Below, in pieces: positions 4,133-17,344 of a DNA stretch of 64,000 nucleotides (position 1 is the stretch's first letter; each line of letters starts with the position of its first letter). The notes beneath the pieces are model-generated. The model saw nothing but the letters and a program-made list of their open reading frames with translations. It ran no database searches and was not told the DNA's origin. A program made the translations under genes and the position numbers. Origin of the DNA: an uncultured Gammaproteobacteria bacterium (GTDB lineage: Bacteria > Patescibacteriota > Microgenomatia > Levybacterales > GWA1-39-11); the NCBI GenBank assembly GCA_964627245.1, contig CAZVGS010000001.1:89256-153255 (forward strand), in the 5' to 3' direction.

Positions 4133-4137
4133 GCCGT

Positions 4138-4809
4138 ATGGAACTCCCATACAGTGAATATGTCTGGTTCTCTCCGCGATTCGCGATGAATTACCTCACA
4201 GACTTGATGAGAAAATACACTCCTGATGTTGTACTGAGAAGCCCCAAATACAAGAAAGAAAAAGAAGCATGGATTATGGGCGTAGCACTCTTCGGGGTTA
4301 TTAAAATCACCCGTGTTAGGTGGTGGTTACAAGTGCCAACTGATGACCCACCAGACATGAAGGCTATGATGTTAACGCCAGACCATGATAAAAACCTCAA
4401 TATCATGAATTATCGTGAAGTTGAAATAATGCAAATCACCAAACATACTAACGGAACTATTGTTGAGGAGATTTTGAGAAAGTTAAAGGGTAATTCATAC
4501 CCCAAGGAATGGGCACTAGTCGTCTACTTAAACCGTGCAATGTTTATAGAAGATATGCGAAAAATATCAAACGAACTCGTTGAGGCAAAACCGAAAATCG
4601 CAGATATATGGGTAGTTGCCAGCACTACACCAAATGCGAATAAATACATACTATTTTCTCTTTTCCCAGAGGTTCAGACAGTTACATACGATATTGATGA
4701 GGAGATGAGAAATTTAGAAATTGGAGACTCTATTGACCTCATGCCATACCATAAAGGTACGACAATGACATTAATCCGCAATGTTAAACGCACAAAATTT
4801 ATTCCCTGA
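4138..4809 (+). CDS. hypothetical protein (first gene of element)
   Basis: 223-aa ORF with no antisense competitor of similar quality. No motif recognised with confidence. Confidence 0.55.
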   Translation: MELPYSEYVWFSPRFAMNYLTDLMRKYTPDVVLRSPKYKKEKEAWIMGVALFGVIKITRVRWWLQVPTDDPPDMKAMMLTPDHDKNLNIMNYREVEIMQITKHTNGTIVEEILRKLKGNSYPKEWALVVYLNRAMFIEDMRKISNELVEAKPKIADIWVVASTTPNANKYILFSLFPEVQTVTYDIDEEMRNLEIGDSIDLMPYHKGTTMTLIRNVKRTKFIP

Positions 4810-4839
4810 CCTCTGAATTAGCTACTGCAAACCTCAAAA

Positions 4840-4862
4840 AAAACTTGACTTCCTGCCCGTTA
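4840..4862 (+). promoter_or_regulatory. conserved promoter/operator-like box, copy 1 (AAAACTTGACTTCCTGCCCGTTA)
   Basis: 22 of 23 nt identical to 10587-10609. Contains the -35-like TTGACT. Lies 20 nt upstream of the RHH gene. Confidence 0.5.
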
Positions 4863-4881
4863 TCCGATTACGGTTATCAGT

Positions 4882-5037
4882 ATGAAGTCAACACGTGCGA
4901 CAATCATACTCTCTTCAGACGTTCATGAAGCCTTAAGACGAATGGCGTTTCAAAGACGGCTAAGCATCTCAAAACTGGTCCGACTTTCCCTCATTGACTT
5001 CCTTTTGAAGCATGGGGAGAAAAGACCGGAGGAATAG
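4882..5037 (+). CDS. ribbon-helix-helix (CopG/Arc-like) DNA-binding protein, 51 aa
   Basis: Found by hand because it is below the ORF-track cutoff: MKSTRATIILSSDVHEALRRMAFQRRLSISKLVRLSLIDFLLKHGEKRPEE. It shows the beta-strand/helix/helix pattern of RHH repressors and antitoxins. Confidence 0.55.
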   Translation: MKSTRATIILSSDVHEALRRMAFQRRLSISKLVRLSLIDFLLKHGEKRPEE

Positions 5038-5088
5038 TATGACAGGGGTGAGATTGTCCATCCTTGCCCCGCATACTAATGATTAGCT

Positions 5089-5208
5089 ATGAGCGCAAAA
5101 GATTTAACAATGATTATAGAAATACTGGTACAGATGGATTACATCAGGATTAAGCTCGATGAAAATCAGCGGGTACTTGAGATACTGGCCAAGAGACTGA
5201 AACGATAA
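5089..5208 (+). CDS. possible small protein, 39 aa
   Basis: Hand-translated MSAKDLTMIIEILVQMDYIRIKLDENQRVLEILAKRLKR. The stop lies 1 nt before the next start. No other support. Confidence 0.25.
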   Translation: MSAKDLTMIIEILVQMDYIRIKLDENQRVLEILAKRLKR

Positions 5209-5209
5209 T

Positions 5210-5509
5210 ATGAATTTAGAATTTAACAAAACATGCGAATTATGCAGGGATGAGTTTACCCTTACCCACAGGCCACACAGAGGCGGAACAATAGTCTCAC
5301 GGTTGTGTCCTAATTGTGAATCAATCAAACCTGAGATTGAAAAGGTAATGTACGGCAAATCCTACTCAAGCGCAACGGATGAGGATAAAGCCAGAATCTT
5401 CGAACGCGCACGGGAAAACAGAACAGTCAGACGCGGACCGTTCTTCAATCCCAAAGACAACGGAACGGGCGGAAAAGTTCAGTCAGAATACGAAAGGAGA
5501 AAAAGGTAA
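5210..5509 (+). CDS. small zinc-ribbon protein
   Basis: 99 aa with CELC…CPNC (CxxC-x23-CxxC). Confidence 0.5.
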   Translation: MNLEFNKTCELCRDEFTLTHRPHRGGTIVSRLCPNCESIKPEIEKVMYGKSYSSATDEDKARIFERARENRTVRRGPFFNPKDNGTGGKVQSEYERRKR

Positions 5510-5712
5510 TGCCGACAAGAAATAATACAGAAGGAAAGGTATTCGGTGATATTGAGGGACAGACAAACCACCCTGAGGGACTGGACATGACAAAACAGTT
5601 AAAAATGAGGGAAGGACAGCGCAGCGGATTGGTCAGAATGGGAGTACCGAAAAGCATCGTCAGAGCAAGTATCAATCAGGCTCAGTTTAAGCCTACAAGA
5701 AAGGGTAAATAA
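5509..5712 (+). CDS. hypothetical small protein
   Basis: 67 aa. Its start shares one nucleotide with the upstream TAA (TAATG coupling). Confidence 0.45.
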   Translation: MPTRNNTEGKVFGDIEGQTNHPEGLDMTKQLKMREGQRSGLVRMGVPKSIVRASINQAQFKPTRKGK

Positions 5713-5795
5713 TGATCACTTACTGTTCGGAATGCGGGTACAGACTTTTCCGGGGTAAATACCGATACTACTGTATTAACAAAGAATGCTTATGA
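5712..5795 (+). CDS. possible 27-aa zinc-ribbon mini-protein
   Basis: Hand-translated MITYCSECGYRLFRGKYRYYCINKECL (CxxC…CxxxxC). The start abuts the upstream stop. It is very short, so speculative. Confidence 0.2.
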   Translation: MITYCSECGYRLFRGKYRYYCINKECL

Positions 5796-5968
5796 TAGAT
5801 GAATTACTTGATGATATGGCAATTGAGATTGAACGGCTAATGGTAAGCGATGCGGTTAAAGCCCGCCTGAGATTACAGCTTGCAGAGCTTGCGGATAATA
5901 CCCAGGAGCTACGGCTGAAAGCACTATTTGACTGTATTCTGTTCGAGGCCAAAAAACTAAACACATGA
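5786..5968 (+). CDS. hypothetical small helical protein
   Basis: 60-aa ORF with an ATGA overlap onto the next ORF. Confidence 0.4.
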   Translation: MLMIDELLDDMAIEIERLMVSDAVKARLRLQLAELADNTQELRLKALFDCILFEAKKLNT

Positions 5969-6264
5969 AACTATACGAAAAAGCAATAAAACAACTGGAG
6001 CGGGATAAACCTAAGGTAACTATTGAGGATAACACAGCCAAGAGAATAGAAATCCTGAACAAACTGTTACAGGCAGAATACGGATTCATTGAGCAGAACA
6101 AAGATGAAGTAACGAAAGAGCTGAAAGGACGGTTCAAAGAAACCCTGATAAATGAAGTACTTGAAGAGATTAAGAATCACAGCAATACCGGTAAAACACC
6201 GTACTATGTAGGACTACAGATCGCCAGCGATACGGTACAAAAACGAAAGGGAAAACAGCAATAA
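5965..6264 (+). CDS. hypothetical protein
   Basis: 99-aa ORF, charged and helical, translationally coupled to its neighbours. Confidence 0.5.
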   Translation: MKLYEKAIKQLERDKPKVTIEDNTAKRIEILNKLLQAEYGFIEQNKDEVTKELKGRFKETLINEVLEEIKNHSNTGKTPYYVGLQIASDTVQKRKGKQQ

Positions 6265-6265
6265 T

Positions 6266-6613
6266 ATGAAACAAAATAAGACCATTTCCCCCTTAGAAGG
6301 AAATAATGAGGAAGCCGAACAGGCTACAAAAGAGATACGGTCAGGCAAGTCAGCTAGTGGAAAGAAATCTTCCCCCCCCGTTCCCCGTCCCCAACAAACA
6401 CCGTTTAAGATAAACAAACTCTCGGATATCCGCAAAGCAAGTAAGGTACTCATGACTGATTTAATCAACAAGGAGGGCAGGTTCACGGTTGCAGAAAGCA
6501 GAGTATTCAAGGACATGGCAGAGCTGTACTTTAAGGCGGAGGAGAACATTACAACCAAGAGACTAATGAATAAGCTGAAGAAAGAAAACGACACGGACAG
6601 AAAGGGGCGGTAG
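6266..6613 (+). CDS. hypothetical basic protein
   Basis: 115-aa ORF that starts 1 nt after the upstream stop. Confidence 0.5.
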   Translation: MKQNKTISPLEGNNEEAEQATKEIRSGKSASGKKSSPPVPRPQQTPFKINKLSDIRKASKVLMTDLINKEGRFTVAESRVFKDMAELYFKAEENITTKRLMNKLKKENDTDRKGR

Positions 6614-6796
6614 CGCAGGGGTATGGGTACTGAATAAACTGTACGGTATTTCAATGATGCTACACCACCCCCCACCTATACCTACACCCCGCGCGGTGGG
6701 ACACGGGTAAAGGGAGTGACATATAGAGGAAGTACTTAACGGTGTACAGAAGGTAACCCATTGAAGCGAACTCTTATAAATTTTTTGGGAGATTTT

Positions 6797-6805
6797 TGTC
6801 ATAAT
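6797..6805 (+). promoter_or_regulatory. extended -10 (TGtCATAAT) 6 nt upstream of ATG 6812
   Basis: Sequence tttTGTCATAATaactgtATG. Confidence 0.35.
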
Positions 6806-6811
6806 AACTGT

Positions 6812-7006
6812 ATGAATGATACCAACTTTCTAATTTCTCTGGCTATTGGTTTTGTTATATTTTTACTTTTTTCATTTAGTGGCCCAAAAACGCATCGCGA
6901 TCCATTCTATGGTGATATTGATAACATTTCGCATAGTATTGCTGTTGGATTGATCTGTATGGGGGCAACGTACAGTATTTTGCAAATTATTAGTAGTATG
7001 TTTTGA
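6812..7006 (+). CDS. small two-TM membrane protein
   Basis: Internal Met of ORF 6761..7006. The product is MNDTNFLISLAIGFVIFLLF…GLICMGATYSILQIISSMF with two hydrophobic helices. The start was chosen because of the -10 box placement. Confidence 0.4.
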   Translation: MNDTNFLISLAIGFVIFLLFSFSGPKTHRDPFYGDIDNISHSIAVGLICMGATYSILQIISSMF

Positions 7007-7092
7007 TGTCCCAATTTGACAAAGATTGATTAGCACGATACGGTGTATAAGCTTGGTAAAGGATACTATGGCAGTATTCTAATCTACAAAGG

Positions 7093-7117
7093 AGCATCTC
7101 TCAGGAGGTGCTTTTTT
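7093..7117 (+). terminator. intrinsic terminator
   Basis: AGCATCTC-tcag-GAGGTGCT stem (8 bp, one G-U pair) followed by TTTTTT. It lies inside the N-terminal extension of track ORF 7043..7399. Confidence 0.55.
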
Positions 7118-7126
7118 GTGTCTATT

Positions 7127-7135
7127 TGGTATAAT
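7127..7135 (+). promoter_or_regulatory. extended -10 (TGgTATAAT) 6 nt upstream of ATG 7142
   Basis: Sequence attTGGTATAATgaattaATG. Confidence 0.45.
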
Positions 7136-7141
7136 GAATTA

Positions 7142-7399
7142 ATGGATTATAAAACTGCCAGTGAGCTACTTAGAGAACTTTCTCTACTTTGGATATGGGA
7201 AGCCGGAAACTATAATAATAAAATTCCATCCAACTTGCTTACCCGGGATCTTTGTTATTATGACCAGGCGTGCGACTATTTACGACGATTTCCTAAAACA
7301 GGTGATCTTGAACGTGTGGCCCTCGCTCAAATGCAGATGAATTACATTGACGATATTGAGGGGAATAATGAAATGGAAAAATTATTTTCCATCCTCTAA
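7142..7399 (+). CDS. hypothetical protein, 85 aa
   Basis: Internal Met (MDYKTASELL…) of track ORF 7043..7399. The upstream part of that ORF contains a terminator and a promoter. Confidence 0.4.
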   Translation: MDYKTASELLRELSLLWIWEAGNYNNKIPSNLLTRDLCYYDQACDYLRRFPKTGDLERVALAQMQMNYIDDIEGNNEMEKLFSIL

Positions 7400-7525
7400 C
7401 CTTTTAATTACATCAGCTCTTCTCTTCCGTACTTCATCAAGGAGTTTCTTACGTCTTTCACGGACTTCATTGTACATGGGTTTTACTACTACTCGTGGCT
7501 TTCTAAACTTCCCGTATTCAGTCAT
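7382..7525 (-). CDS. possible 47-aa basic protein at the end of the cargo operon
   Basis: Hand-translated MTEYGKFRKPRVVVKPMYNEVRERRKKLLDEVRKRRADVIKRLEDGK. The ATG lies 3 nt after the upstream stop. No other support. Confidence 0.2.
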   Translation of the reverse strand: MTEYGKFRKPRVVVKPMYNEVRERRKKLLDEVRKRRADVIKRLEDGK

Positions 7526-7528
7526 ACG

Positions 7529-7822
7529 TTAGTACTCTCCTACGCGTTCAGCCCATTGAGGAGGTGTTCTTTCGTCCTCTTCGCTATGTAATTGAGTTTC
7601 AAATGATATTTTCGAGGCGTGTTCTATAGTGGAATCTTTACCTACTTCGCCACCTATTCCGAGTACGGTAATTCCTACTTTTCCGCCTCCCTTGTCACTC
7701 TTGGTAACTGCAATATCAAATTTAACGGAGCTTGAAACATAATTACCGCCAGTGTGAGCGTCCTTTATCTGCCTGAGGCTTTCTTGTATGAAGTCTTTTA
7801 GTTCGTTATTTTCGTCTGCCAT
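7529..7822 (-). CDS. trypco2-like (trypsin-co-occurring domain 2 / CU044_2847-like) small protein; family assignment tentative
   Basis: 97 aa. The pattern LKDFIQESLRQIKDA…VKFDIAVTKSDKGGGKVGITVLGIGGEVGKDSTIEHASKISFETQL resembles the helix plus beta-hairpin Gly-rich pattern I recall for trypco2 domains. Confidence 0.45.
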   Translation of the reverse strand: MADENNELKDFIQESLRQIKDAHTGGNYVSSSVKFDIAVTKSDKGGGKVGITVLGIGGEVGKDSTIEHASKISFETQLHSEEDERTPPQWAERVGEY

Positions 7823-7823
7823 A

Positions 7824-8291
7824 TTATACGGTTACCTTCTTTTTCTTGAACCTTCTGTATCCTAAATATCCCAATCCCCCAAGTAGTGCCATTGCCACAA
7901 CCCCACCACCTCCACTATCTTCACTCGCTCCCTGAACGGCTATGGTTGGTGTAGGCTCTTTGGGCGAGGGTGTATTCGTGGGTTCATCCGTAGGTTCAGC
8001 GGTAGGAGTAGGAGTATTGGTAACAGCACGGGTTGGTATTCTCGAGGGTGCGGTTGTGTTTATCGGTGCAAATTGTTTTACGGGTGCGGTTGTTGCAACG
8101 GGTGCACTTTCAACCCTTTTTACGCTTCCGTCTGGGTTATGGTGGTGATATTCTCCAGAGCCTAAACCCCATTCTTCGCAATTAGTACGGCATCTATGAC
8201 CACCGCTCCCGTCGGTCCCTCCAGGATGGGCTTCTATAGGGGAAACAGATATATAGAAGAGCAGGGATAAGATAAGTAAAGTTTGATACAT
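7824..8291 (-). CDS. YHYH-domain secreted protein with PT linker and C-terminal TM/basic anchor
   Basis: Signal peptide, then AHPGGTDGSGGHRCRTNCEEWGLGSGEYHHHN (YHYH-family signature), a PT-rich linker, and GGGGVVAMALLGGLGYLGYRRFKKKK at the C-terminus. Confidence 0.7.
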   Translation of the reverse strand: MYQTLLILSLLFYISVSPIEAHPGGTDGSGGHRCRTNCEEWGLGSGEYHHHNPDGSVKRVESAPVATTAPVKQFAPINTTAPSRIPTRAVTNTPTPTAEPTDEPTNTPSPKEPTPTIAVQGASEDSGGGGVVAMALLGGLGYLGYRRFKKKKVTV

Positions 8292-8310
8292 TAACCAGTA
8301 TTATACTCCT

Positions 8311-10227
8311 TTAATCGTGCCAAATGTCATTACCTCTCGCATCCATACCTAACCACTGCTGAGATTTTTCTAATTCCTCACGCCAGTACCACCCGCCGGG
8401 AACTTTTTCTTCTGTCTTTTTCTTAATAGCTGGTTTCCGTGTTGGGGTCGGAGACGGAGCTTCAGTTGTTATCGGGCTAGGGGTAACTGATGGTATTGCG
8501 TTTACCGTTGCTACCGGAGAAAGAATTTCGAGAGCACTCACTTCTTTTATCTTTGTTGCCGAATCAAATAAATAGTAAGTAGTAAATCCAGATACAGTTG
8601 CAAATACAGAGATGAAAATAATGATTTGACTTACAGTGAGATAATTAGCTCTAATGTGTGAAAATGCATAATTAATCCGTTTTGATAGGGGTGGGATTTC
8701 ACTTAACCGTCTTTTGGTATTTCTCATCTGTACAACCAAAATAAACGTTATTATGAAATTCCAAAAAATCCAGAATTGAATAGAAAAATAATCAATATCA
8801 AATAAATGAATATCCCCTGTCCTTAGCCCAATCAGAATTAGAATAGTATAGAAAGTGAAATATATGGTTACAAACCGTGTCGTTTGTGAGAAAGCATGAG
8901 AGACAGATTTGTGTTTCGCGTTAGTTGAAACCCATCCGACAGATTTTTTGAACAATGCGGTTTTTACTGCGTGGGAATACGCATAAGTTCGAGCCATGAG
9001 AATTCCAAAATACCCGAATCGAAATTTAGCGACTGGGAATAACCACAGGTAAACAATTGCAAAAATTAAGTGAGGGTAAAAGAGCAAACTCTTACCGAGA
9101 GGAATATATTCATTGTATAAGAACAGTGTCCAAAAGAGATGGAAAGAGAAGAGGATCATCAAAGGGTGATGTAAATAGAACATAAACCCGGTAATAAAGC
9201 AGAATTTGGTTTTCCACGATGTCTTACCTTTCCAGAAAAATTTTGAAAGCATTAATCGCAAACTACCCATACACCATCTATGTTGTTGGTGGAAAAAGGC
9301 GTATTGATTATCCGGGCATAATCCAATAGATAGAAGTATCGGTACAAATAGAACCCTTAAACCTACTCTTGAAATAGCGTACCCAGTATGAGCATCTTCA
9401 CTGTATTCAATCTGATAGGGTCCGCCGATTGCCTCGATTGCACTTCTCCGATACAATGCACACGAACCACAGCATATAGCCCCCCCGAATCGACTTCTCG
9501 TCACTTGAATAAATCGGTAAAATGGCTCTTCGGCAAATGCTGCGTTATATGCGAATTTTGATTTTTTATATGCATTATCTGACAAATCAAAGTATTGAGG
9601 CGTTTGAACAATTCCGACAGTTGGATCATCCATATACGGGAGCGTTTCTTTTATAAAATCGGGATGGGGTGCGAAATCAGCATCAAAGATTGCGATAAAA
9701 TGACCATTAGACCTCTCAAAAGTATGTTTCAAATTTCCAGCCTTTTTCATATGTCCCTTATTCGGCCGTTCCATATAAACGAATCCAAAGTGTTGAGCCA
9801 ATTCTTTATGCGCCTCGAAATTTTCCTTCGAATCATCCAATACGTATACGGTTTTATTTTTATAGTTAATGTTTGATACGTGTTCCCAGGTATTTCTGAG
9901 TACGTCAACTTCTTCACCACAAATAGGCAAGAAAATATCAACGGGGGGTTCTTTGTCATATGATTTTACAAGTGCAAAGTGTTTCAGCAAGTCAAATTGA
10001 CGGTAAAACAAGTTAAGGCCAAAGCTGGCAAGGTGATAAATAGAGAGTAGTATAAAAATTGGAATGACAAAAAATGAATAAAACGGGTCTATCCCTATGA
10101 CGTTCCAGTACCCAAGCATAATCAAGATCCATGAGAAAATCCCAAATCCATACAGTAATCTAACTTTCCAGGTGGGAGTTTTTTCAATATACAGGTACTT
10201 ATTAATTGTCGAGGGGTTGGGGAGCAT
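8311..10227 (-). CDS. processive family-2 glycosyltransferase (cellulose/chitin-synthase-like) with a C-terminal PT-rich tail
   Basis: 638 aa, multi-TM, with VLDDS, FDADF, QTPQYF, SEDAHTG and QQHRW (QxxRW) motifs. There is an extra C-terminal TM region, a PT linker and a GGWYWREE…tail. Confidence 0.85.
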   Translation of the reverse strand: MLPNPSTINKYLYIEKTPTWKVRLLYGFGIFSWILIMLGYWNVIGIDPFYSFFVIPIFILLSIYHLASFGLNLFYRQFDLLKHFALVKSYDKEPPVDIFLPICGEEVDVLRNTWEHVSNINYKNKTVYVLDDSKENFEAHKELAQHFGFVYMERPNKGHMKKAGNLKHTFERSNGHFIAIFDADFAPHPDFIKETLPYMDDPTVGIVQTPQYFDLSDNAYKKSKFAYNAAFAEEPFYRFIQVTRSRFGGAICCGSCALYRRSAIEAIGGPYQIEYSEDAHTGYAISRVGLRVLFVPILLSIGLCPDNQYAFFHQQHRWCMGSLRLMLSKFFWKGKTSWKTKFCFITGFMFYLHHPLMILFSFHLFWTLFLYNEYIPLGKSLLFYPHLIFAIVYLWLFPVAKFRFGYFGILMARTYAYSHAVKTALFKKSVGWVSTNAKHKSVSHAFSQTTRFVTIYFTFYTILILIGLRTGDIHLFDIDYFSIQFWIFWNFIITFILVVQMRNTKRRLSEIPPLSKRINYAFSHIRANYLTVSQIIIFISVFATVSGFTTYYLFDSATKIKEVSALEILSPVATVNAIPSVTPSPITTEAPSPTPTRKPAIKKKTEEKVPGGWYWREELEKSQQWLGMDARGNDIWHD

Positions 10228-10232
10228 ACGAA

Positions 10233-10532
10233 CTAGTTACCACCATTTCGTACACGGGACACAAAATCTCTAATTCTTTGTTGAAAGTCATTGTTATATT
10301 CTTTGAATTCTGGATTACGAACAGCTTTACAGCTTGGATAAGAAATTTGTCGATTAAATGGAAGTTCGCGTGTTACAGTCTGACAAACAATAGTTACAGG
10401 TGTATGAGGATTATCATAAATTGGCGGTGTTACTCCACCTCCACCATAAGCAGAAGCTGTTGGAACGTTAAATAAGAATACGGAGAGAATAAATGTGAGT
10501 ATAAATAACTTTTTCATCCTTAAAAGCATCAT
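10233..10532 (-). CDS. small secreted protein (first gene of cargo operon)
   Basis: 99 aa with signal peptide MKKLFILTFILSVFLFNVPTASA. Separated from the GT2 gene by 5 nt. Confidence 0.55.
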   Translation of the reverse strand: MMLLRMKKLFILTFILSVFLFNVPTASAYGGGGVTPPIYDNPHTPVTIVCQTVTRELPFNRQISYPSCKAVRNPEFKEYNNDFQQRIRDFVSRVRNGGN

Positions 10533-10586
10533 AACAGATGCATCTTATAATATCAATACCCATTTCTTACAATATTTTAATTTTTG

Positions 10587-10609
10587 AAAACTTGACTTCC
10601 TGTCCGTTA
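10587..10609 (+). promoter_or_regulatory. conserved promoter/operator-like box, copy 2 (AAAACTTGACTTCCTGTCCGTTA)
   Basis: 22 of 23 nt identical to 4840-4862. Confidence 0.5.
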
Positions 10610-10656
10610 GTACGATAGGGTTTCATCATAAGCTAAACAGCCAAGCACTAGCACTT

Positions 10657-10692
10657 AGCGACTAATCGTATTTTCGAGAGGTCGCTTTTTTT
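10657..10692 (+). terminator. promoter-proximal intrinsic terminator in the leader of the 10790-16553 operon
   Basis: AGCGAC…GTCGCT stem with an internal loop, followed by TTTTTTT. It lies 47 nt after box copy 2 and about 100 nt before the first gene. Confidence 0.45.
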
Positions 10693-10789
10693 GTGGCTGG
10701 AATGTTGAAAAGCGGGGGTTCCTCCTTCAACAAGGGGTCCATAATGCCCCCGCCTTTGAGCCTTTCAGTTAAATGATACAAGGTTAAAT

Positions 10790-11062
10790 ATGAAGAAAGT
10801 AAGCAGAAACAATTTATACAGAGAGATAGACAAATTATTCCTTTGGTTAATTCAGTTACCCGATACTGATGCCGATGAGGATAAGTCTTTGCGTGAAATT
10901 CAGAAACATCTTGTCAGGTTATCAAATCTGAAAAGTGAGGAATACACTCAGGAAGCTCCTGAACAGCCGGAACAACCGCAACAGCAGGAACCGCAAAAGC
11001 CGTTAACCGATATGCAACGAAAAATTATGAGCGGGGAAATCTCGATAGGAGGACAGGAATAA
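10790..11062 (+). CDS. hypothetical acidic protein
   Basis: 90-aa ORF, first of a co-directional array of 7 ORFs. Confidence 0.5.
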   Translation: MKKVSRNNLYREIDKLFLWLIQLPDTDADEDKSLREIQKHLVRLSNLKSEEYTQEAPEQPEQPQQQEPQKPLTDMQRKIMSGEISIGGQE

Positions 11063-11063
11063 A

Positions 11064-12101
11064 ATGGCTTGGGGCGAACAGGGACAGAAAATTACATGGA
11101 CACCGAACGTAGTTTCAGACGATAAGAAACAACACGGCGGATGGTATGACAATCCTTCAACGGGATATAACCAACGGTGGTACTCAGGCGGTGCAACCAG
11201 TGAAAACGGTAACTCTTCCTCTAGTGGCTTCTCAATTCCTCAACCTGATATGGAAGCAATCAATCGGGAGTATCAGCCTATTTATGAGAATTATGCCCGT
11301 GATGAGCAGTTCTTAAAAGAATCCCAGGCAAGTGAGCAGGAAATGCTTAATGACAATTTTACTCTTGCCGATACCCGACTTGATAGGAATAAAACGGAGC
11401 GCGAGTTACACAACAAGGAACAGGAAACTACACTTAATAATCAATACCGCTCAGCGTACGAGGAAGTAGTACGCGCACAGAACGCATTAACACAGCAGGG
11501 AAATGTACGATTCGGAGGCACATCTTCAGCGGGTCGGGCTATGGGAGAAATCGCACAAAGTGAATTCTTCCGACAGTCAGGAAAAATACAGAATACCCAT
11601 CTTGAGAATATAGGCAGAATTCAGTCCGATTGGAGAAAATATCTTTCTTGGCATGCGGACGAAGAGCAAAGACTGGTCCAGGAGAAAAGACACGAAACCA
11701 CAAAACTTCAAAACACGTACAAACAGATGTATGTTCAGATTGCAAATAACCGTAACATCACAAAATCAGAACAGGCACGGGCACAGCGCAACGCTCAGGA
11801 AACATACCAGGCACGTAAGGCAGACCTTGAGAACTCTATCAAACTCAGACAGATGGCAATGGATGAGTACGCCCAAAAACTCAGAATGGAACTTGATGCG
11901 CAAATTGAGTTAGCGGGTAAAACAGCCTATTCGGTATCGGATAACACGTTTGCAAGTGATACTCAGTCAGATGTTGACGGTGTAAGTTATGTTCCTTCCG
12001 AGAACGGCAGTCTTATGAATATGAATACCAGTTATGTAAATCCGTTCGCACGCGCACGATACAGCGATGATGAATTTGAGGATAATCCTTATTTCGCTTA
12101 A
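11064..12101 (+). CDS. Gln/Asn/Glu-rich coiled-coil protein, function unknown
   Basis: 345-aa ORF. The N-terminus has GGWYDNPSTGYNQRWY and the centre is long, heptad-like and charged. It starts 1 nt after the upstream stop. Confidence 0.6.
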   Translation: MAWGEQGQKITWTPNVVSDDKKQHGGWYDNPSTGYNQRWYSGGATSENGNSSSSGFSIPQPDMEAINREYQPIYENYARDEQFLKESQASEQEMLNDNFTLADTRLDRNKTERELHNKEQETTLNNQYRSAYEEVVRAQNALTQQGNVRFGGTSSAGRAMGEIAQSEFFRQSGKIQNTHLENIGRIQSDWRKYLSWHADEEQRLVQEKRHETTKLQNTYKQMYVQIANNRNITKSEQARAQRNAQETYQARKADLENSIKLRQMAMDEYAQKLRMELDAQIELAGKTAYSVSDNTFASDTQSDVDGVSYVPSENGSLMNMNTSYVNPFARARYSDDEFEDNPYFA

Positions 12102-12106
12102 TAACT

Positions 12107-15100
12107 ATGGAATTAAAATCACTGCTCAGAGACGTTTCACGCCGTTATAACGAATATAACCGTAAACAGAAAAAACCACGCATACAGCCGAGTCTTATTG
12201 AAGATGTCGGGAACCGATTCCGCTCATTCGTAAAAGAACAGTCTCAGGAAGGCCAACCGCTCCACAAAATAACCCGCACCATTCAGGAATTACCGTTAGT
12301 TACACAACGCGAAGTAGATGAGGTCGGGACCCGCTTTCGCTCTTTCGTGGATGAAAGACAAAAAAATGTTGATGATGTGGGTAAACGATTCGGGGAATTC
12401 AAAGTAAAGGCTTCTCAGTTTTCAAAGGATTATGACCCGTTCAACTTTGATGAAAAAGCCCCGATAAATCAGCTTCCCGTTCTCGGCGATATCCGCAGAA
12501 CATTACAGCCGTATACAAATCCTTATAAATTAGGTCCTATGGAACTGATGCGCAGAAATACGGAACTCATGCAAAAAGAGAGTAAAGGAATTGCATTGAC
12601 CGATGAGGAAAAGGAATTTCAGAAGTATTACATGACCGAACAGGCTTCTATGGTTATGCCGATGGGTACGGTCGGTAAAGTGGCAAAACCCGCATTAACC
12701 GCATTGCAGAAAGAAGCCGTAAAGAAATTACCTAAAATACTCTATGAATTTGATGCTAAGACCGCAAACAAGGTAATTGATGAAGCAAAAGGAGCCTCTA
12801 AAGAATGGGTTGATGAATTCAAATCATGGGTAAATACCAGAGCATCCGCACAGCTTCAGGGACTGAATCAGCGGATGAAATTCAAGGATATGGATTCTGA
12901 GGGAATTGCAGGTATTTTTAAGTTCCAGGCAGGAGACAAGACGGGACGGTTTGCCGATGTGAAGAAATTTTTTGATTCCCGCTATTCAGAACTTCAGAAA
13001 GCAGGAGTTGAATTCAGATATAAACAGGAGTATCTACCGCAACTATGGCTTAATTCAAAAGAAGAGGTTGAGGAACGGCTCGGACGAACTCTTACTTCCC
13101 GTCCTTCCTTCTCTCTTCGATCAGTAATTGAGAATTATCAGAAAGGAATAGCTAACGGACTAAAACCGCGCTTTCAGACATTATCGGAACTTATCGGATG
13201 GTATGAGGCAAAAACGGCCAAAGTTATAGCGGATCAGAATTTTTACAACTACATGAAGAAGGCAAAGTATATTCTTCCTGAGGATACGGCTCCTGCATGG
13301 TGGAAAACGATAGATTCCGAGAAGTTTCCGAAGTTCACGGTTAAAGTAGGTTCGGAGGTTAAGAATCTGAACTATAAAGCTGAGGGAAGAATTGCGGATG
13401 CTATTAACAATTATCTTAATGACCCTGAAGGAGCATTACCAGCTTTTGCTGACTTTGCCACGAAGGTTAAGAATCTGGGATTATCGGCAGGCGTACCCCA
13501 TACTTCAATTAACTTTCACGGCTATAACATCTTCGTCCGTTCGGTCCTGGCAAGTAATAACCCCGTATCTTCTATTTTCAGAACAGGCCAATGGATGCTT
13601 AAACCCAAAATTGCGGAACGGTTTGTTATGAATAACCTTGAGGATGCGCAGTATTTTGTTAAAAACGGCATGACCATGAGTACCGAGGATTACGGACTGT
13701 TCGAGGCGGTTGAGAAGGTTAAAAAAAGCGGTGTAATTAATAAGACATTAGATAAATATGAGGAATGGTTCGGGGACCCTCTGTTTAAGAAATCCCTTCC
13801 CGCAATCAAAATTCAGTATACCCGCGCATTGTTTGATGATTTACTCAAAACATTGCCTGAAGAGGAAGCGGTAAAGATAGCCGTAAAAAGCGCAAATGAT
13901 GTATTCGGGGGAATTAATTTGAATGAACTGATGCGCAACAAACAAACACAAAATGTACTCCGTTCCGTTCTGCTCGCGCCAGACTGGGCTGAGTCTACAA
14001 TCAGAATGGGTAAAGGAATTGTTAAAGGAGTTGCCAACCCGTTAAGCCCCGAGTACAAAGCATACCGTACTTTTGCCAAAAACATGGTATTCGGGTATAT
14101 CACGGCCAACGTTGTGAATAAAGCTCTGTCAGGTCACTGGATGTTTGAAAATGAAGGTAACAATAAATTCAATATTGATACCGGTACATATACGGGAGAC
14201 GGTAAGAAACGGTACTTCAGAATCTGGGGTACGGCCGTTGATTTTGCCAGACTTCCTGTTGATATCGTTAACGGTCTCTCAAAAGGCGATCCGTCAGCAT
14301 TTGTCAGAACCTTCACTAACCGCTTATCCATGCCTGTAGGTTCAGCAGGACATTTACTATTCAATAAAGATTATCTCGGACGGCCCGTATACGGAAAAGA
14401 CCAATGGGGAAATGAAATCGACCCTATACAGTCAGCAGGAGGCATAACAAATGAAGTATTACGCGGTGTCGGAACTCCTACTCAGGTAATGGCGGGTATT
14501 GATTTACTTACAGGGCGTTCAAATCCCGAACAGGCTCTTGCTCAGTCACTTGAACTTCCGATGCGATATCAGGGAGGAGCAAGCTCGGACACACAGAAAA
14601 GAAGAAATGCAGCGTTTCAGTCTCTCGGCTTTGAAGGCGAAGCATTAGCCCGCGAAATGGAGAGAACAAAGGGTATGAGATATTCGGGAAGTCAGGGAGA
14701 AGAAAAGTCACTGCTTGACCATATCGGAGAAAAGTTCATGAGCGTATTCGGTAAGAAAGAACCTAACAGACCTCAGCCGAATGACCCGCTTACAAAGGCT
14801 TTTCTTGCGGATATCGAAAAGGATGAGAATGCTACCCGTGTAAGAGAAGTATTCAAATTAGGTTTAAGCAAGGAACAGACAGAACAGTTACTTGAAAAGG
14901 AAGGATTAGGTACGTATGAAGAAGCTGAATTGATAATTATGAAAGCTCTCGGTGTTGAGAACGGAACTCGTGGAAATTACATTCAGGAGATTACAAAGGG
15001 AATGGATGATGAAAGTAAAGAGGCCACTCTTTCCTATCTGGCCGAGAACGAAATTCTGACTACCTCAGTTATATCCCAATGGGTTGATGACGGGGAAATA

Positions 15101-15391
15101 ACAGACGAGGAAGCCGATTATCTGAAGGACCTGATTAAAAAAAGTAAAGGAACGTACAAAGGTCCGAAGGCAAAAGGCGGTAAGAAAGCGGGCGCAAAGA
15201 AAGTAACGGCAGGAAGTATCCCGACAATTAAGATTCCTACTTTTGCGGGCGGTACGGTTAAGAGTGTCAGCAAGGCATATTACAAACCGATACCAAAGAT
15301 TACCTATGAAAGACCTACGCCTACTTCAAAACAAAAAGTATCAGCTCCGAAGCCTGAGACTAATTTTAAATCATACGGAGGGAACAACTAA
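12107..15391 (+). CDS. large (1094 aa) protein of unknown function with N-terminal triple repeat and basic C-terminal tail
   Basis: Longest ORF of the element. It has three copies of (D/E)(D/E)VG(N/T/K)RF(R/G)(S/E)F in the first ~100 aa and a Lys-rich C-terminus (KAKGGKKAGAKK…). I found no Walker A or other catalytic motif. Confidence 0.75.
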   Translation: MELKSLLRDVSRRYNEYNRKQKKPRIQPSLIEDVGNRFRSFVKEQSQEGQPLHKITRTIQELPLVTQREVDEVGTRFRSFVDERQKNVDDVGKRFGEFKVKASQFSKDYDPFNFDEKAPINQLPVLGDIRRTLQPYTNPYKLGPMELMRRNTELMQKESKGIALTDEEKEFQKYYMTEQASMVMPMGTVGKVAKPALTALQKEAVKKLPKILYEFDAKTANKVIDEAKGASKEWVDEFKSWVNTRASAQLQGLNQRMKFKDMDSEGIAGIFKFQAGDKTGRFADVKKFFDSRYSELQKAGVEFRYKQEYLPQLWLNSKEEVEERLGRTLTSRPSFSLRSVIENYQKGIANGLKPRFQTLSELIGWYEAKTAKVIADQNFYNYMKKAKYILPEDTAPAWWKTIDSEKFPKFTVKVGSEVKNLNYKAEGRIADAINNYLNDPEGALPAFADFATKVKNLGLSAGVPHTSINFHGYNIFVRSVLASNNPVSSIFRTGQWMLKPKIAERFVMNNLEDAQYFVKNGMTMSTEDYGLFEAVEKVKKSGVINKTLDKYEEWFGDPLFKKSLPAIKIQYTRALFDDLLKTLPEEEAVKIAVKSANDVFGGINLNELMRNKQTQNVLRSVLLAPDWAESTIRMGKGIVKGVANPLSPEYKAYRTFAKNMVFGYITANVVNKALSGHWMFENEGNNKFNIDTGTYTGDGKKRYFRIWGTAVDFARLPVDIVNGLSKGDPSAFVRTFTNRLSMPVGSAGHLLFNKDYLGRPVYGKDQWGNEIDPIQSAGGITNEVLRGVGTPTQVMAGIDLLTGRSNPEQALAQSLELPMRYQGGASSDTQKRRNAAFQSLGFEGEALAREMERTKGMRYSGSQGEEKSLLDHIGEKFMSVFGKKEPNRPQPNDPLTKAFLADIEKDENATRVREVFKLGLSKEQTEQLLEKEGLGTYEEAELIIMKALGVENGTRGNYIQEITKGMDDESKEATLSYLAENEILTTSVISQWVDDGEITDEEADYLKDLIKKSKGTYKGPKAKGGKKAGAKKVTAGSIPTIKIPTFAGGTVKSVSKAYYKPIPKITYERPTPTSKQKVSAPKPETNFKSYGGNN

Positions 15392-15393
15392 TT

Positions 15394-15579
15394 ATGAATA
15401 AAAAGTGTCTTACATGCGGGACGGAATTACAGAAACGAAAACATGAAAGCCGGGCAAGATTTGAAAAAAAGCAGTTCTGTACGGCCGAACATGCCAGGAC
15501 ACATATGAAGGAAACAGGGCGTGGCTGGTGGAATCCGGAATTTGATAGAGGAAAACTCAGAGCAAAGGGGGTGAATTAA
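15394..15579 (+). CDS. small zinc-binding protein
   Basis: 61 aa with CLTC…CTAEH. Confidence 0.5.
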   Translation: MNKKCLTCGTELQKRKHESRARFEKKQFCTAEHARTHMKETGRGWWNPEFDRGKLRAKGVN

Positions 15580-15581
15580 AT

Positions 15582-15776
15582 ATGAACAAAGACCAATTAA
15601 GAGATGAAATGCAACAGGTAGCTTATGACACTATTCGGGGCGTTTCAGGACAACAGGTAAACGAGATTGATTACAAGAACGCGCTTGTATCAAAAACTCA
15701 GGAAGTCGTTGACGGAGCATATCAGCTCGGTTATAACGCGGGCTTTGAGGCGGGCAAAAACGCGCCACAAGGTTAA
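15582..15776 (+). CDS. hypothetical small protein
   Basis: 64-aa ORF, tightly packed against its neighbours. Confidence 0.5.
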   Translation: MNKDQLRDEMQQVAYDTIRGVSGQQVNEIDYKNALVSKTQEVVDGAYQLGYNAGFEAGKNAPQG

Positions 15777-15808
15777 GAAATATTAAAAATGAAAGGAGGT
15801 GTAAAAAT

Positions 15809-16201
15809 ATGATTCGCAGAGATAAAACAAATTACGATCCTAACAAGGATAAATACAACTGGACGAACGACATGTACCGACAGGATGAGCTTTCTAACAG
15901 GGATTTAGAAGAACAGAAAGCGATAATCAATAACTGGCAGGCTATGAGTGAAAGTAAAAATGAAGCTGAAAAAGCCGAATGGGAACTGAACAGAAGAATT
16001 GCAGCGGTTACCGAAACGGATAATGCAGACATCAGACAGAAAGAGGCAATTAAGAGATACAAAATAGCCCAAAAATATGACGAGATAATCCGTAGCAAAA
16101 TGACAAGAGGCCAGACAGAGGAAGAATTTGAAGAAGAACGTCATGAATACGGAGCATTGCATCGCAGGGCTTTAAAAGAGGCTATGCGGTCAATTGAATA
16201 A
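15809..16201 (+). CDS. hypothetical charged helical protein
   Basis: 130-aa ORF preceded by a strong SD (aaaggaggtgtaaaaatATG). Confidence 0.55.
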   Translation: MIRRDKTNYDPNKDKYNWTNDMYRQDELSNRDLEEQKAIINNWQAMSESKNEAEKAEWELNRRIAAVTETDNADIRQKEAIKRYKIAQKYDEIIRSKMTRGQTEEEFEEERHEYGALHRRALKEAMRSIE

Positions 16202-16553
16202 TATGAGGGACGAGAAATGTATTGAATGCAGTGAGCAATTCACGATTACGGAAAGTGAACAATCATTTTATGTAAAGATGGGGTTCTTTCTTCCGAAAAG
16301 ATGCGCTGATTGCAGAAGAAAAAGAAAAGCTCAATTCGGGCAGGAAAGGAGGTTTAACTTAATGAATAATTCAAAACTTACAACATCAAGAATTACAAAG
16401 GCCACGAAGCAGGAAGCACCTAAAAATGCTATAGATTTTGCTTCTGACCAGAGAAAGGGAGTAACCAACTCTCAGGCTCCTGAAATTCGTGCGAATAACG
16501 GAACCATCTCTAGCAACGGCGGACGGTTCGGCGGATTCCTTAAGAACCGCTAA
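16194..16553 (+). CDS. zinc-ribbon protein (zf-trcl-like CxxC…EQxFY…RCxxCR)
   Basis: 119 aa. CIECSEQFTITESEQSFYVKMGFFLPKRCADCRRKRK matches the pattern I recall for the 'probable zinc-ribbon' family. Confidence 0.55.
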   Translation: MNNMRDEKCIECSEQFTITESEQSFYVKMGFFLPKRCADCRRKRKAQFGQERRFNLMNNSKLTTSRITKATKQEAPKNAIDFASDQRKGVTNSQAPEIRANNGTISSNGGRFGGFLKNR

Positions 16554-16963
16554 CGGTAATTGGAGGGCAGGTTGTTGTTCGTGAGTTCAAACGGAAACGA
16601 GCAGTTTCCGGGTAATGTGTTCCTCATGAGCAACGCTCTGTCCTTCAGGACGGAATGGCTTACAGCCTGAGATTTCATAGCTCTCAGTCAACACCAACGG
16701 GCGGAGCGGGTAAAGAATGTGCAGGAAAATCAGTCTCACAATAATAACTTTACCTGCCCGCTACGAAGTGCATACTCTACGGCTCTGTAATGCCTCAAAA
16801 ACGAGAGGAAATGCCTGAATCATACACATATACCATTAACGGGGTAAGACACGAAAAACGAAACTATACGGCCTTCTGGACCATAGATGAATAATAAATA
16901 TATTATGTATGTACAGGCACATAATTAGTTAAGATAACAGTAATTACTTAACGTACTATAAGC

Positions 16964-16992
16964 TTGACAAGTCACTTCCAGCATGATACAAA
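16964..16992 (+). promoter_or_regulatory. sigma70-like promoter (TTGACA-17-TACAAA)
   Basis: Sequence agcTTGACAagtcacttccagcatgaTACAAA inside the 780-nt ORF-free region. Confidence 0.4.
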
Positions 16993-16999
16993 TAATATG

Positions 17000-17110
17000 T
17001 AGCAATAAAAAAGCTATCGGGTAATAAGTGTTTGAGCAAATGACCCTTTTCGGGTGCTGTTGTTCTAACTGCTTCAAACACGGCACAGCACTACCCGAAA
17101 GGGGTTTTTT
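17000..17110 (+). ncRNA. candidate ~110-nt small RNA (promoter to terminator unit)
   Basis: Bounded by the promoter at 16964-16992 and the strong terminator at 17043-17110. It contains a second helix (17028-17038 pairs with 17070-17081) interleaved with the terminator helix. Confidence 0.25.
17043..17110 (+). terminator. strong intrinsic terminator
   Basis: ACCCTTTTCGGGTGCTGT pairs with ACAGCA(cta)CCCGAAAGGGGT (12 + 6 bp with a 3-nt bulge and 24-nt loop), followed by TTTTTT. Confidence 0.7.
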
Positions 17111-17150
17111 ATTGGCTTACTACTAGCCCTATTAGTAGTGCACATACGGT

Positions 17151-17203
17151 AGAGGCAATCAGATGAATCGCGTAAAAGCGGAAAATCGGTTGTCTCTTTT
17201 TTT
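17151..17203 (+). terminator. second intrinsic terminator preceding the conserved leader box
   Basis: AGAGGCAA…TTGTCTCT outer stem with nested GAT/ATC and CGC/GCG pairs, followed by TTTTTTT. Confidence 0.45.
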
Positions 17204-17344
17204 GTGGCTTGAATGAGGGGAATCGTCAGCGCGTTCCTCTCCTTCAATTCGCAAGAATTGAGGTAAGTAGTTAAGTCCTTTGTCTGGCTGGCATTTGCTT
17301 CTTTGTCAGTCAGTCAAAGCATTTAAGGAAAGGGGGTGAAAATT

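What the first reader, a model, noticed from the sequence alone, without database searches (positions are those of the whole stretch)
10587..10789. Promoter-like box, then terminator, then conserved leader before the large-protein operon: possible antitermination switch
Downstream of box copy 2 there is a hairpin plus T7 terminator (10657-10692). Its T-run is the start of a 19-nt box, TTTTTTTGTGGCTGGAATG (10686-10704). That box recurs with one mismatch at 17197-17215, again fused to the T-run of a terminator (17151-17203) and again upstream of the first gene of a module (17345). Both copies are followed by GTTCCTC(TC)CTTCAA (10718-10730 and 17233-17247) embedded in GC-rich hairpins (GCGGGGG…CCCCCGC; CAATTC-gcaa-GAATTG). 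A promoter followed within ~100 nt by a terminator in front of the main operon is the layout of lambdoid PR'-tR'/Q control or of put/N-type RNA-based antitermination. The conserved post-terminator box could be part of the recognition element.
Basis: partly seen in the sequence, partly recalled or inferred. Interest (0 to 1): 0.65.

Follow-up and report, generated by a model that had tools for sequence, protein, structure and literature searches.

The report
Terminator-containing structured leader of a prophage operon
The flagged stretch is the conserved, folded RNA leader of the main operon of a small integrated virus-like element in a candidate-phyla-radiation bacterium; it holds a built-in transcription stop signal that must be read through, and the repeated 19-base "box" is the tail of that stop signal plus the start of the next RNA fold, not a separate recognition site.

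Summary
The hairpin+T7 (10657-10692), the 19-nt box (10686-10704; one mismatch at 17197-17215) and the second motif (10718-10730 / 17233-17247) are all where stated, and the repeat is not chance.

The region is a conserved 5' leader:
- a promoter, TTGACT-N10-TTAGT-NN-GATAGGGT;
- a ~65-nt two-hairpin RNA: P1, with an invariant GCAC loop, then an intrinsic terminator with U7;
- a structured 5'UTR domain;
- a first gene with no Shine-Dalgarno sequence.

Orthologous leaders occur in at least 7 related elements. P1 and the downstream domain covary, and G·U pairs fix the strand as +. Leader 1 is more conserved (77.5%) than the adjacent genes (58-71%).

Promoter-hairpin-terminator cassettes precede most operons in these elements, sometimes with two terminators in tandem. 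In one relative the ATG lies 12 nt after the terminator, so read-through is obligatory.

The box is the U-tract plus a linker into the next helix. Its recurrence shows that leader 2 is a paralogue. Across relatives only T6-7 + R-T-K-(G)C survives.

A lambda-like terminator/antiterminator logic is the best reading, but it is inferred. No Q, N, NusG-like or Rfam match exists. It is a new variant of a known kind, of moderate interest.

The parts
10587..10622 (+). Promoter of leader 1: 23-nt box shared with 4840-4862, -35 TTGACT (10592-10597), spacer motif TTAGT (10608-10612), -10 region GATAGGGT (10615-10622)
   Evidence: D18. Alignment A4 has TTGAC and TAGT invariant in 6 orthologous leaders. 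The same TTGACA-N9/10-TTAGT-NN-gATAsGgT plan is found at about 15 places in related elements.
10632..10659 (+). P1 hairpin, with the invariant GCAC (10645-10648) in its loop
   Evidence: RNAalifold: 7 of 8 pairs show compensatory changes. 91.7% of cells are paired against 60.5% in shuffles, 0/500 shuffles reach the score, and slid controls collapse.
10657..10692 (+). Intrinsic-terminator hairpin (AGCGACU...GGUCGCU) plus U7 (10686-10692)
   Evidence: pair probability 1.00. Orthologous stems differ in sequence but keep pairing (AGCGAC/GTCGCT, AGACGC/GCGTCT, AGAGAC/GTCTCT, AGACAGC/GCTGTCT), always followed by T7.
10686..10704 (+).
   Evidence: Across relatives only T6-7 + R-T-K-(G)C is kept.
10702..10773 (+). 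Structured 5'UTR domain: UUGAAAAG, stem CGGGGG/CCCCCG, inner hairpin with the CU-rich GUUCCUCCUUCAA (10718-10730), GGUCCAUAAU, then CCUUUGAGCC
   Evidence: RNAalifold: 7 of 14 outer pairs are compensatory. 95.2% of cells are paired, 0/500 shuffles reach the score, and invariant U·G pairs fix the + strand. The covariance model scores + strand 74.6 bits against - strand 21.5 bits.
10774..10792 (+). End of the leader and start codon (ATG 10790) of the conserved 90-aa first gene; only AAGG as a possible SD
   Evidence: protein conserved in 6 elements. (no usable SD in 6/6 leaders, whereas neighbouring genes carry AAGGAGGT).
16964..16992 (+). Promoter of leader 2 (TTGACA-17-TACAAA)
   Evidence: Conserved in L001 at 8408.
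17042..17110 (+). Leader 2, first terminator: long hairpin plus T6, followed by ATTGGCTTAC
17151..17215 (+). Leader 2, second terminator (17151-17197), U7 (17197-17203) and box copy (17197-17215)
17209..17344 (+). Leader 2 downstream hairpins (UUGAAUG-AGGGGAA...UUCCUCU-CCUUCAA with the motif at 17233-17247; CAAUUC/GAAUUG; 17271-17326), then SD and ATG 17345
7016..7120 (+). Third cassette of the same kind: promoter TTGACA-N8-TTAGC-NN-GATACGGT, P1 hairpin, terminator plus T6 GTG, in front of ORF 7143-7399
4840..4874 (+). Sister promoter carrying the same 23-nt box but no terminator, directly in front of the ribbon-helix-helix gene 4882-5037

Best explanation
Region 10587-10789 is the transcribed leader of the main operon of an integrated virus-like element. 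The operon encodes a 90-aa, a 345-aa coiled-coil and a 1094-aa protein, plus smaller ones. The host is a Candidatus Levyibacteriota (CPR) bacterium.

Shown:
- A sigma-70-like promoter is followed by a ~65-nt RNA made of two independent hairpins.
- The first hairpin, P1, has a covarying stem and an invariant GCAC loop.
- The second is an intrinsic terminator with a U7 tract, and no competing fold exists.
- Transcripts that pass it continue into a covarying structured 5'UTR domain and then a first gene without a Shine-Dalgarno sequence.
- The 19-nt box is the U-tract plus the linker into that domain. It recurs at 17197 because the second leader carries a paralogous terminator+domain module.

Inferred:
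- The default state is termination. Operon expression needs a factor that makes RNA polymerase read through, in the manner of lambda N/Q or LoaP.
- The factor probably recognises P1 and/or the TTAGT promoter spacer.
- It is probably encoded by the only operon that lacks a promoter-proximal terminator, the RHH operon at 4882-7006.
- The terminators also insulate the operon from upstream transcription.
For: - Conservation: orthologous leaders with the same plan occur in L001, L039/L040, L041, L042, L043, L020/L025 and L003.
- Selection: leader 1 is 77.5% identical to its L001 orthologue (83.7% from the T-run to the domain end). The adjacent genes are 58-71% identical.
- RNA structure: P1 and the domain helix covary, and G·U pairs fix the + strand.
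- Default termination: 12 of 12 cassettes fold as 53-75-nt two-hairpin RNAs with terminator pair probability 1.00. The T-run starts 82-105 nt after the -35.
- Strength of the block: tandem terminators occur in window leader 2, L001 leader 2, L003, L019 and L042.
- Obligatory read-through: in L041 the ATG is 12 nt after T7GTG, and no promoter-like site lies between terminator and gene in the window.
- Cascade logic: the RHH-operon promoters (window 4845, L019 -2404, L020 1141) are the only ones of this type without a terminator.
- Insulation: in L001 and L042 a restriction-modification operon ends 0-4 nt before the leader promoter on the same strand.
- Precedent: the dfn leader has a small hairpin essential for antitermination followed by an intrinsic terminator, acted on by LoaP (PMC12691694).
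Against: - No protein of the element matches a known antiterminator (Q, N, NusG/LoaP) in Pfam, PHROGs or NCBIfam.
- No candidate protein is shared by all elements by BLASTP.
- No expression data exist, and termination in a CPR host is untested.
- The sample is small: 6-8 independent leaders.
- P1 loops differ between cassettes of one element. A single factor reading all P1 hairpins is therefore not obvious.
- The conserved R-T-K-(G)C after the U-tract (T at +2 in 21/24 by my count; p about 3e-8) and the function of the downstream domain are not explained by this model.
Confidence: 0.55

Rival explanations
1. Constitutive leaky attenuator and insulator. The terminators have no dedicated antiterminator. 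They let a fixed small fraction of transcripts through and stop read-in from upstream genes. The structured 5'UTR serves mRNA stability or Shine-Dalgarno-independent translation of the first gene.
For: - No antiterminator gene was found.
- Restriction-modification operons run straight into the leader in L001 and L042.
- The first gene lacks an SD in 6/6 leaders, which suggests the 5'UTR matters for translation.
- Promoters 4845 and 10592 share a 23-nt box. Regulation could therefore be at initiation, for example by the RHH protein.
Against: - Tandem strong terminators, and a terminator probability of 1.00 with perfect U6-7 tracts, are hard to reconcile with useful basal read-through of a major operon.
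- An insulator would be expected upstream of the promoter, not downstream.
- P1 conservation (covarying stem, invariant loop) is left without a role.
Confidence: 0.22
2. One reading: the post-terminator box TTTTTTTGTGGCTKGAATG is itself the recognition element of a Q-, N- or put-type antitermination system.
For: - The box is 22/24 identical between the two leaders of the window. That is more than between orthologues (76-80%).
- R-T-K-(G)C after the T-run is enriched at hairpin-preceded T-runs across the family.
- GTG is complementary to the invariant GCAC of the P1 loop.
Against: - The 12 nt after the U-tract are transcribed only after the termination decision.
- In L001 the two leaders share only 61.5% there.
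- L039, L041 and L042 keep only GTG, and in L041 the gene follows at once.
- In the window the sequence is accounted for as linker and 5' flank of a covarying helix.
- A DNA-level role (downstream duplex or non-template strand) is not excluded, but nothing supports it.
Confidence: 0.1
3. The promoter-P1-terminator units are genes for independent ~65-nt small RNAs, for example antisense or immunity RNAs as in P4 or pCF10. They merely lie upstream of operons.
For: - The two-hairpin architecture is uniform, and the distance from -35 to T-run is narrow (82-105 nt).
- Promoters have a strong consensus -35.
- The loop motif is conserved.
Against: - The units always point into an operon that has no other promoter. 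In L041 there is no room for one.
- Sequence conservation continues through the terminator into the 5'UTR.
- No complementary target was found. The only inverted match, to 19383-19408, is 73% and lies inside the recombinase gene (I7).
Confidence: 0.1
4. A DNA-level element, such as a recombination site, origin or packaging site, rather than an RNA.
For: The two direct copies bracket the 345/1094-aa module.
Against: - Helices contain G·U pairs, including invariant ones. These would be A·C on the other strand or mismatches in a cruciform.
- Covariation preserves pairing, not sequence.
- The covariance model scores are strongly strand-asymmetric.
Confidence: 0.03

Closest known systems
Lambdoid late control: PR' - 6S leader - tR' with antiterminator Q (from my own knowledge)
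   Same: A strong promoter is followed within ~100-200 nt by an intrinsic terminator in front of the late operon, and expression is by read-through. A conserved element sits in the promoter spacer (TTAGT here), where the lambda Q-binding element lies.
   Different: No Q-family protein is detected. The leader hairpin P1 is under RNA-level selection, which Q does not need. The cassette precedes several operons rather than one. The host is a CPR bacterium.
Lambda N / nut (boxA-boxB) early antitermination (from my own knowledge)
   Same: A small hairpin with a conserved loop and covarying stem lies upstream of terminators at the start of several operons. A terminator-less 'immediate-early' operon could supply the factor.
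   Different: No N-like protein or boxA could be established upstream of the terminator. The terminators here are intrinsic and lie only 3-6 nt after the hairpin. P1 loops differ between operons of one element.
LoaP-dependent dfn leader of Bacillus velezensis (PMC12691694)
   Same: [quoted passage not shown] This is the same order as P1 then terminator.
   Different: No NusG paralogue is encoded in or next to the element. This is a mobile element or phage, not a polyketide cluster.
HK022 put RNA (from my own knowledge)
   Same: A ~65-70-nt two-stem-loop RNA sits immediately downstream of the promoters of several operons of one phage.
   Different: Here the second stem-loop is itself a canonical terminator with U7. 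No sequence or structure match was tested, because no model was available. Put acts without a protein, which would make the terminator pointless unless it serves as an insulator.
Countertranscript-driven attenuation (pT181/pIP501 rep leaders, pCF10 prgQ-IRS1) and P4 CI-RNA immunity (from my own knowledge)
   Same: The main operon of a mobile element sits behind a promoter-proximal terminator, and short terminated leader RNAs are made.
   Different: No antisense promoter lies in the leader. No alternative antiterminator fold exists, since the terminator probability is 1.00.

Membership tests
Lambda Q-type antitermination | A Q-family protein encoded by the element | tested here: not met
   Pfam, PHROGs and NCBIfam scans of the element's main ORFs gave no antiterminator family. 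A few small ORFs (e.g. 7143-7399) were not scanned.
Lambda Q-type antitermination | A Q-binding element in the promoter, and a sigma-dependent promoter-proximal pause element | tested here: inconclusive
   An invariant TAGT (TTAGT in most leaders) sits in the spacer. No consistent -10-like element was seen in the initially transcribed region by inspection of A4.
Lambda Q-type antitermination | An intrinsic terminator between the promoter and the late genes | tested here: met
Lambda N / nut | A boxB-type hairpin with a conserved loop upstream of the terminator | tested here: met
   The P1 stem covaries and the GCAC loop is invariant in orthologous leaders. This is a resemblance in layout only.
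Lambda N / nut | A boxA sequence next to the hairpin, and an arginine-rich N protein | tested here: not met
   No boxA-like sequence lies between the promoter and the terminator. BoxA-like strings (CUCUUUAAC in L001, UGCUCUUUU in L039) lie after the terminator and are not conserved. No N family hit was found.
LoaP / NusG-paralogue leaders | An adjacent NusG-paralogue gene | tested here: not met
   No NusG or KOW hit in any scanned element ORF.
Riboswitch or classical attenuator | A mutually exclusive antiterminator structure competing with the terminator | tested here: not met
   The terminator stem has probability 1.00 in 12/12 cassettes. P1 and the terminator overlap by 3 nt only in the window and L001, not in L039, L041, L042 or L043.
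Any Rfam family | A covariance-model match | tested here: not met
   Only tRNAs reach the gathering threshold in the window. With E up to 10 on both leaders only chance snoRNA and miRNA hits appear.
Countertranscript attenuation (pT181/pCF10 type) | An antisense promoter and RNA within the leader | tested here: inconclusive
   The sigma-70 scan found no minus-strand promoter-like site inside 10620-10790. The element's own promoter type was not found on the minus strand there either. There are no expression data.
HK022 put | Sequence and structure of the put two-stem RNA, acting on the RNA polymerase beta-prime zinc domain | not testable with these tools
   No put model was available. Only the overall size and position are similar.

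The most novel reading that the evidence does not exclude
The ~65-nt promoter-proximal two-hairpin cassette and the downstream UUGAAA...UUUGAGCC domain are a new RNA-based gene-control system of CPR phages. There are two versions. In one, P1 acts as a put-like cis element, or as the target of an unrecognised family of small zinc-finger antiterminators, governing all but the immediate-early operon. In the other, a 5'UTR domain carrying a mimic of the 16S anti-Shine-Dalgarno sequence (CCUCCUU, AUCACCUUCUUA) drives or gates Shine-Dalgarno-independent translation of the first gene. The conserved R-T-K-GC after the U-tract would then be a functional part of a new terminator or antiterminator signal.
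Probability: 0.15. Interest if true: 0.75.

Novelty: new variant of a known kind. Interest (0 to 1): 0.5.

Why it matters
Gene regulation in candidate-phyla-radiation bacteria and their viruses is essentially uncharted. These leaders give sequence-level, covariation-supported evidence for three things in that setting: recognisable sigma-70-type promoters, canonical intrinsic terminators, and a lambda-like 'everything behind a terminator except one early operon' logic. They also define two RNA motifs absent from Rfam (P1+terminator, and the UUGAAA...UUUGAGCC domain). These motifs can be used to find more such elements and to look for the missing antiterminator. If the factor is found, it would probably be a new antiterminator family.

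Tried and rejected
- Rfam at gathering and at E up to 10: nothing relevant.
- Leader-peptide idea: in the window and L001 an SD-like AAGGGG precedes ATG CCC CCG CCT (MPPP...). The ATG is absent in L039, L042 and L043, so I rejected it as a general mechanism. GTG 10693 opens a 27-codon frame in the window but hits a stop after two codons in L001.
- Sigma-54 reading of TGGCTG-N5-TTGA: the -12 element is not kept in leader 2 or in relatives. Rejected.
- A Bacteroidetes-type promoter in the T-run, or a second sigma-70 promoter after the terminator: no -10 at the right distance.
- 18-mer GGTCCATAATGCCCCCGC in viral contigs: two chance hits in high-GC coding DNA.
- 14-mer CTTTTTTTGTGGCT in viral contigs: the scan saturated at 120 loci, 50 preceded by hairpins, none with the family promoter. 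It says nothing about enrichment.
- Genome-contig scan with the 1094-aa alignment: no relative.
- Covariance model of the domain over 522 kb of related loci: only the training copies were found.
- nhmmer with the leaders: only L001, and weakly L003.
- 345-aa alignment in viral contigs: no further leaders.
- GenBank phages: no DNA or protein match.
- Function of the 1094-aa and 345-aa proteins: no PDB sequence hit. AlphaFold pLDDT was 54 and Foldseek found no PDB match.
- BLASTP for an accessory protein shared by all elements, as an antiterminator candidate: none.
- boxA-like, T7 epsilon-like and anti-SD-like strings in the domain were recalled from memory only. They are not conserved enough to claim.

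Full report
**Observation.**
- The 19-nt box at 10686-10704 recurs once, with one mismatch, at 17197-17215. A search allowing 3 mismatches finds no other copy. Expected by chance 0.06, and 0 of 100 shuffles gave two matches. The shared stretch is 24 nt, 22 identical (D16).
- Both T-runs close hairpins of about -15 and -20 kcal/mol.
- Both leaders fold much better than shuffled controls (z -3.9 and -4.9).

**Context.**
- The host is a CPR bacterium. UvrB of the window is 86-91% identical to that of Candidatus Levyibacteriota MAGs.
- Positions ~4.1-20.3 kb form an integrated element. GC is 41-43% there against 34-39% in the host part. A large serine recombinase (18557-20233) abuts tRNA-Lys.
- The operon behind leader 1 encodes a conserved 90-aa protein, a 345-aa coiled-coil protein and a 1094-aa protein. 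Their homologues are extremely rare: 6-7 in 5.8 billion proteins, with more in viral and metagenome contigs.
- In viral contigs the gene pair follows a terminase and an SU10-type portal, or precedes an SU10-type adaptor. It is probably a virion module. Its function could not be established.

**The leader is a family.** I fetched contigs through the 345-aa and 1094-aa proteins. These gave orthologous leaders in L001, L039/L040, L041, L042, L043, L020/L025 and, more distantly, L003. All share one plan, in this order:
- a promoter, TTGACA-N9/10-TTAGT-NN-gATAsGgT;
- a short single-stranded 5' end;
- hairpin P1;
- a 3-6-nt linker;
- a GC-rich hairpin followed by T7 (T6 in L020 and at the first L003 terminator) and mostly GTG;
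- zero (L041), one (window, L001, L020) or two (L039, L042, L043) copies of a structured domain;
- a conserved small first gene.

Leader 1 is 77.5% identical between the window and L001, and 83.7% from the T-run to the domain end. The adjacent genes are 58-71% identical at the nucleotide level. The leader is therefore under stronger constraint than the coding sequence.

**RNA-level selection.**
- P1: 7 of 8 pairs show compensatory changes. 91.7% of cells are paired against 60.5% in shuffles, 0/500 shuffles reach the covariation score, and slid registers collapse to 25-43%. Its loop carries an invariant GCAC.
- Terminator stems differ in sequence but stay paired: AGCGAC/GTCGCT, AGACGC/GCGTCT, AGAGAC/GTCTCT, AGACAGC/GCTGTCT.
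- The outer helix of the downstream domain (UUGAAAAG-stem ... stem-CCUUUGAGCC) has 7 of 14 compensatory pairs. 95.2% of cells are paired, and 0/500 shuffles reach the score.
- Invariant U·G pairs, and a covariance-model score of 74.6 bits on + against 21.5 on -, fix the strand. This rules out a DNA-level site.
- Neither motif matches any Rfam family.

**What the box is.**
- In the fold of leader 1, the U-tract ends the terminator. GUGGCUGGAAUG is the linker that runs into the 5' flank (UUGAAAAG) of the domain helix.
- In leader 2, the box's UUGAAUG is itself the 5' flank of a minimal version of the same helix: AGGGGAA/UUCCUCU, then CCUUCAA.
- Across relatives the 12 nt after the T-run drift: GTGGTTTGAAAA, GTAGCTTAACTG, GTGGCTTTATGC, GTGCTCTTTTGC, GTGCAAAAAACA, ATTGCCTGAATA, ATTGCTGAATTG. 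Only T6-7 + R-T-K-(G)C persists.
- That residue is real. By my count from the cassette terminators listed, T at +2 occurs in 21 of 24, against 32% at other T-runs (p about 3e-8). It remains unexplained.
- It lies downstream of the point where termination is decided, so it cannot be a nut- or put-type RNA signal for that terminator.

**A general cassette.**
- A pattern search for the promoter found the same unit several times per element. The unit is promoter, then P1, then terminator. It occurs at window 7016-7120 (in front of ORF 7143-7399), at 10592, and, found by direct inspection rather than the pattern search, with two terminators at 16964-17203. It also occurs at L003 (two sites), L019 (two terminators), L020 (two sites), L032 and L041 (two sites). 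L042 has two terminators.
- All 12 cassettes tested fold as 53-75-nt two-hairpin RNAs with terminator pair probability 1.00. The T-run starts 82-105 nt after the -35. There is no competing antiterminator fold, so this is not a riboswitch or a classical attenuator.
- In L041 the ATG is 12 nt after T7GTG, and no other promoter lies between terminator and gene in the window. The operons can therefore only be expressed by read-through.
- The only promoters of this type without a terminator sit directly in front of a ribbon-helix-helix gene: window 4845, L019 -2404 and L020 1141. The window's 4845 and 10592 promoters share a 23-nt box.

**Mechanism.**
- Shown: a conserved promoter, a conserved structured leader, and strong intrinsic terminators, often in tandem, between the promoter and the genes.
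- Inferred: termination is the default, and a factor made from the terminator-less early operon allows read-through, as in lambda N/Q. Among characterised systems, the closest match in layout is the LoaP dfn leader, which has a small hairpin essential for antitermination followed by an intrinsic terminator (PMC12691694).
- The recognition determinant is more likely P1, its GCAC loop, or the TTAGT spacer than the box.
- The terminators would also block read-in from the restriction-modification operons that end 0-4 nt before the leader promoter in L001 and L042.
- Against this reading: no Q, N or NusG-like protein is detectable. No accessory protein is shared by all elements. P1 loops differ between cassettes. 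There are no expression data.
- A constitutive leaky attenuator/insulator is the main rival.

**Open points.**
- The function of the downstream domain is unknown. It contains a CU-rich stretch (GUUCCUCCUUCAA; AUCACCUUCUUA in L039 and L043). From memory this resembles the 3' end of 16S rRNA.
- The first gene lacks a usable Shine-Dalgarno sequence in 6/6 leaders, although neighbouring genes carry AAGGAGGT. A role in translation is possible but untested.
- The GCAC loop of P1 is complementary to the GUG(C) after the U-tract. Both are invariant, so covariation cannot test this.

**Verdict.** This is a real, conserved regulatory leader with a promoter-proximal terminator: a new variant of a known kind of control, in a lineage where nothing of the sort has been described. 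The specific role proposed for the box does not.

Noticed in passing
window 4100-20280: An integrated ~16-kb element. GC is 41-43% against 34-39% in the host part. A large serine recombinase (18557-20233) abuts tRNA-Lys(CTT) at 20207-20279(-). An HTH_36 replication-initiator-like gene sits at 17690-18106. No terminase, portal or capsid hit was found, so it may be a satellite or a very small virus of a Levyibacteriota (CPR) host.
   Followed up: partly
window 11064-15391: An orphan gene pair: a 345-aa coiled-coil protein and a 1094-aa mostly helical protein. Each has only 6-7 homologues in 5.8 billion proteins, and neither has a Pfam, PHROG, PDB or GenBank-phage match. In viral contigs the pair follows a terminase and an SU10-type portal (L012) or precedes an SU10 adaptor (L007).
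   Followed up: partly
window 7016-7120: A third promoter-hairpin-terminator cassette of the same type (TTGACA-N8-TTAGC-NN-GATACGGT ... T6GTG) in front of a small ORF at 7143-7399.
   Followed up: yes
window 4840-5037; L019 (-)2404; L020 1141: The only promoters of the family without a promoter-proximal terminator sit directly in front of a ~50-aa ribbon-helix-helix gene. The window copy shares a 23-nt box with the leader-1 promoter, which may be an operator.
   Followed up: partly
window 10790; L001 2673; L039 3243; L041 3405; L042 3549; L043 7806: The conserved 63-90-aa first gene behind the leader has no usable Shine-Dalgarno sequence in 6 of 6 elements. Neighbouring genes carry AAGGAGGT.
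   Followed up: partly
window 10744-10783 (also L001 2583-2660): An SD-like AAGGGG lies 6 nt before ATG CCC CCG CCT (MPPPLSLSVK*) inside the structured domain. This would be a polyproline mini-ORF. The ATG is absent in L039, L042 and L043.
   Followed up: yes
window 10693, 17204, 17111, 7118 and about 20 terminators in L001-L043: Terminator U-tracts in this group of elements are followed by R-T-K-(G)C, often GTGGCT or ATTGGCT (T at +2 in 21/24 by my count, p about 3e-8). The cause is unknown.
   Followed up: partly
window 10645-10648 versus 10693-10696 (and orthologues): The invariant GCAC in the P1 loop is complementary to the GUG(C) that follows the U-tract (7 bp in L041: UGCACAA / UUGUGCA). 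Both are invariant, so no covariation test is possible.
   Followed up: no
window 7529-10532 (-): A minus-strand module inside the element includes a 638-aa family-2 glycosyltransferase, which may be a lysogenic-conversion moron. Relatives L001 and L042 carry a methylase/restriction enzyme/Vsr operon at the corresponding place.
   Followed up: no
L004 4301-4498: A related element encodes a ribosomal protein S21 homologue.
   Followed up: no
L044-L069 record titles: Many MAGs whose UvrB is 86-91% identical to the window's are titled 'uncultured Gammaproteobacteria' although they cluster with Levyibacteriota. These are probably generic or mislabelled titles.
   Followed up: no
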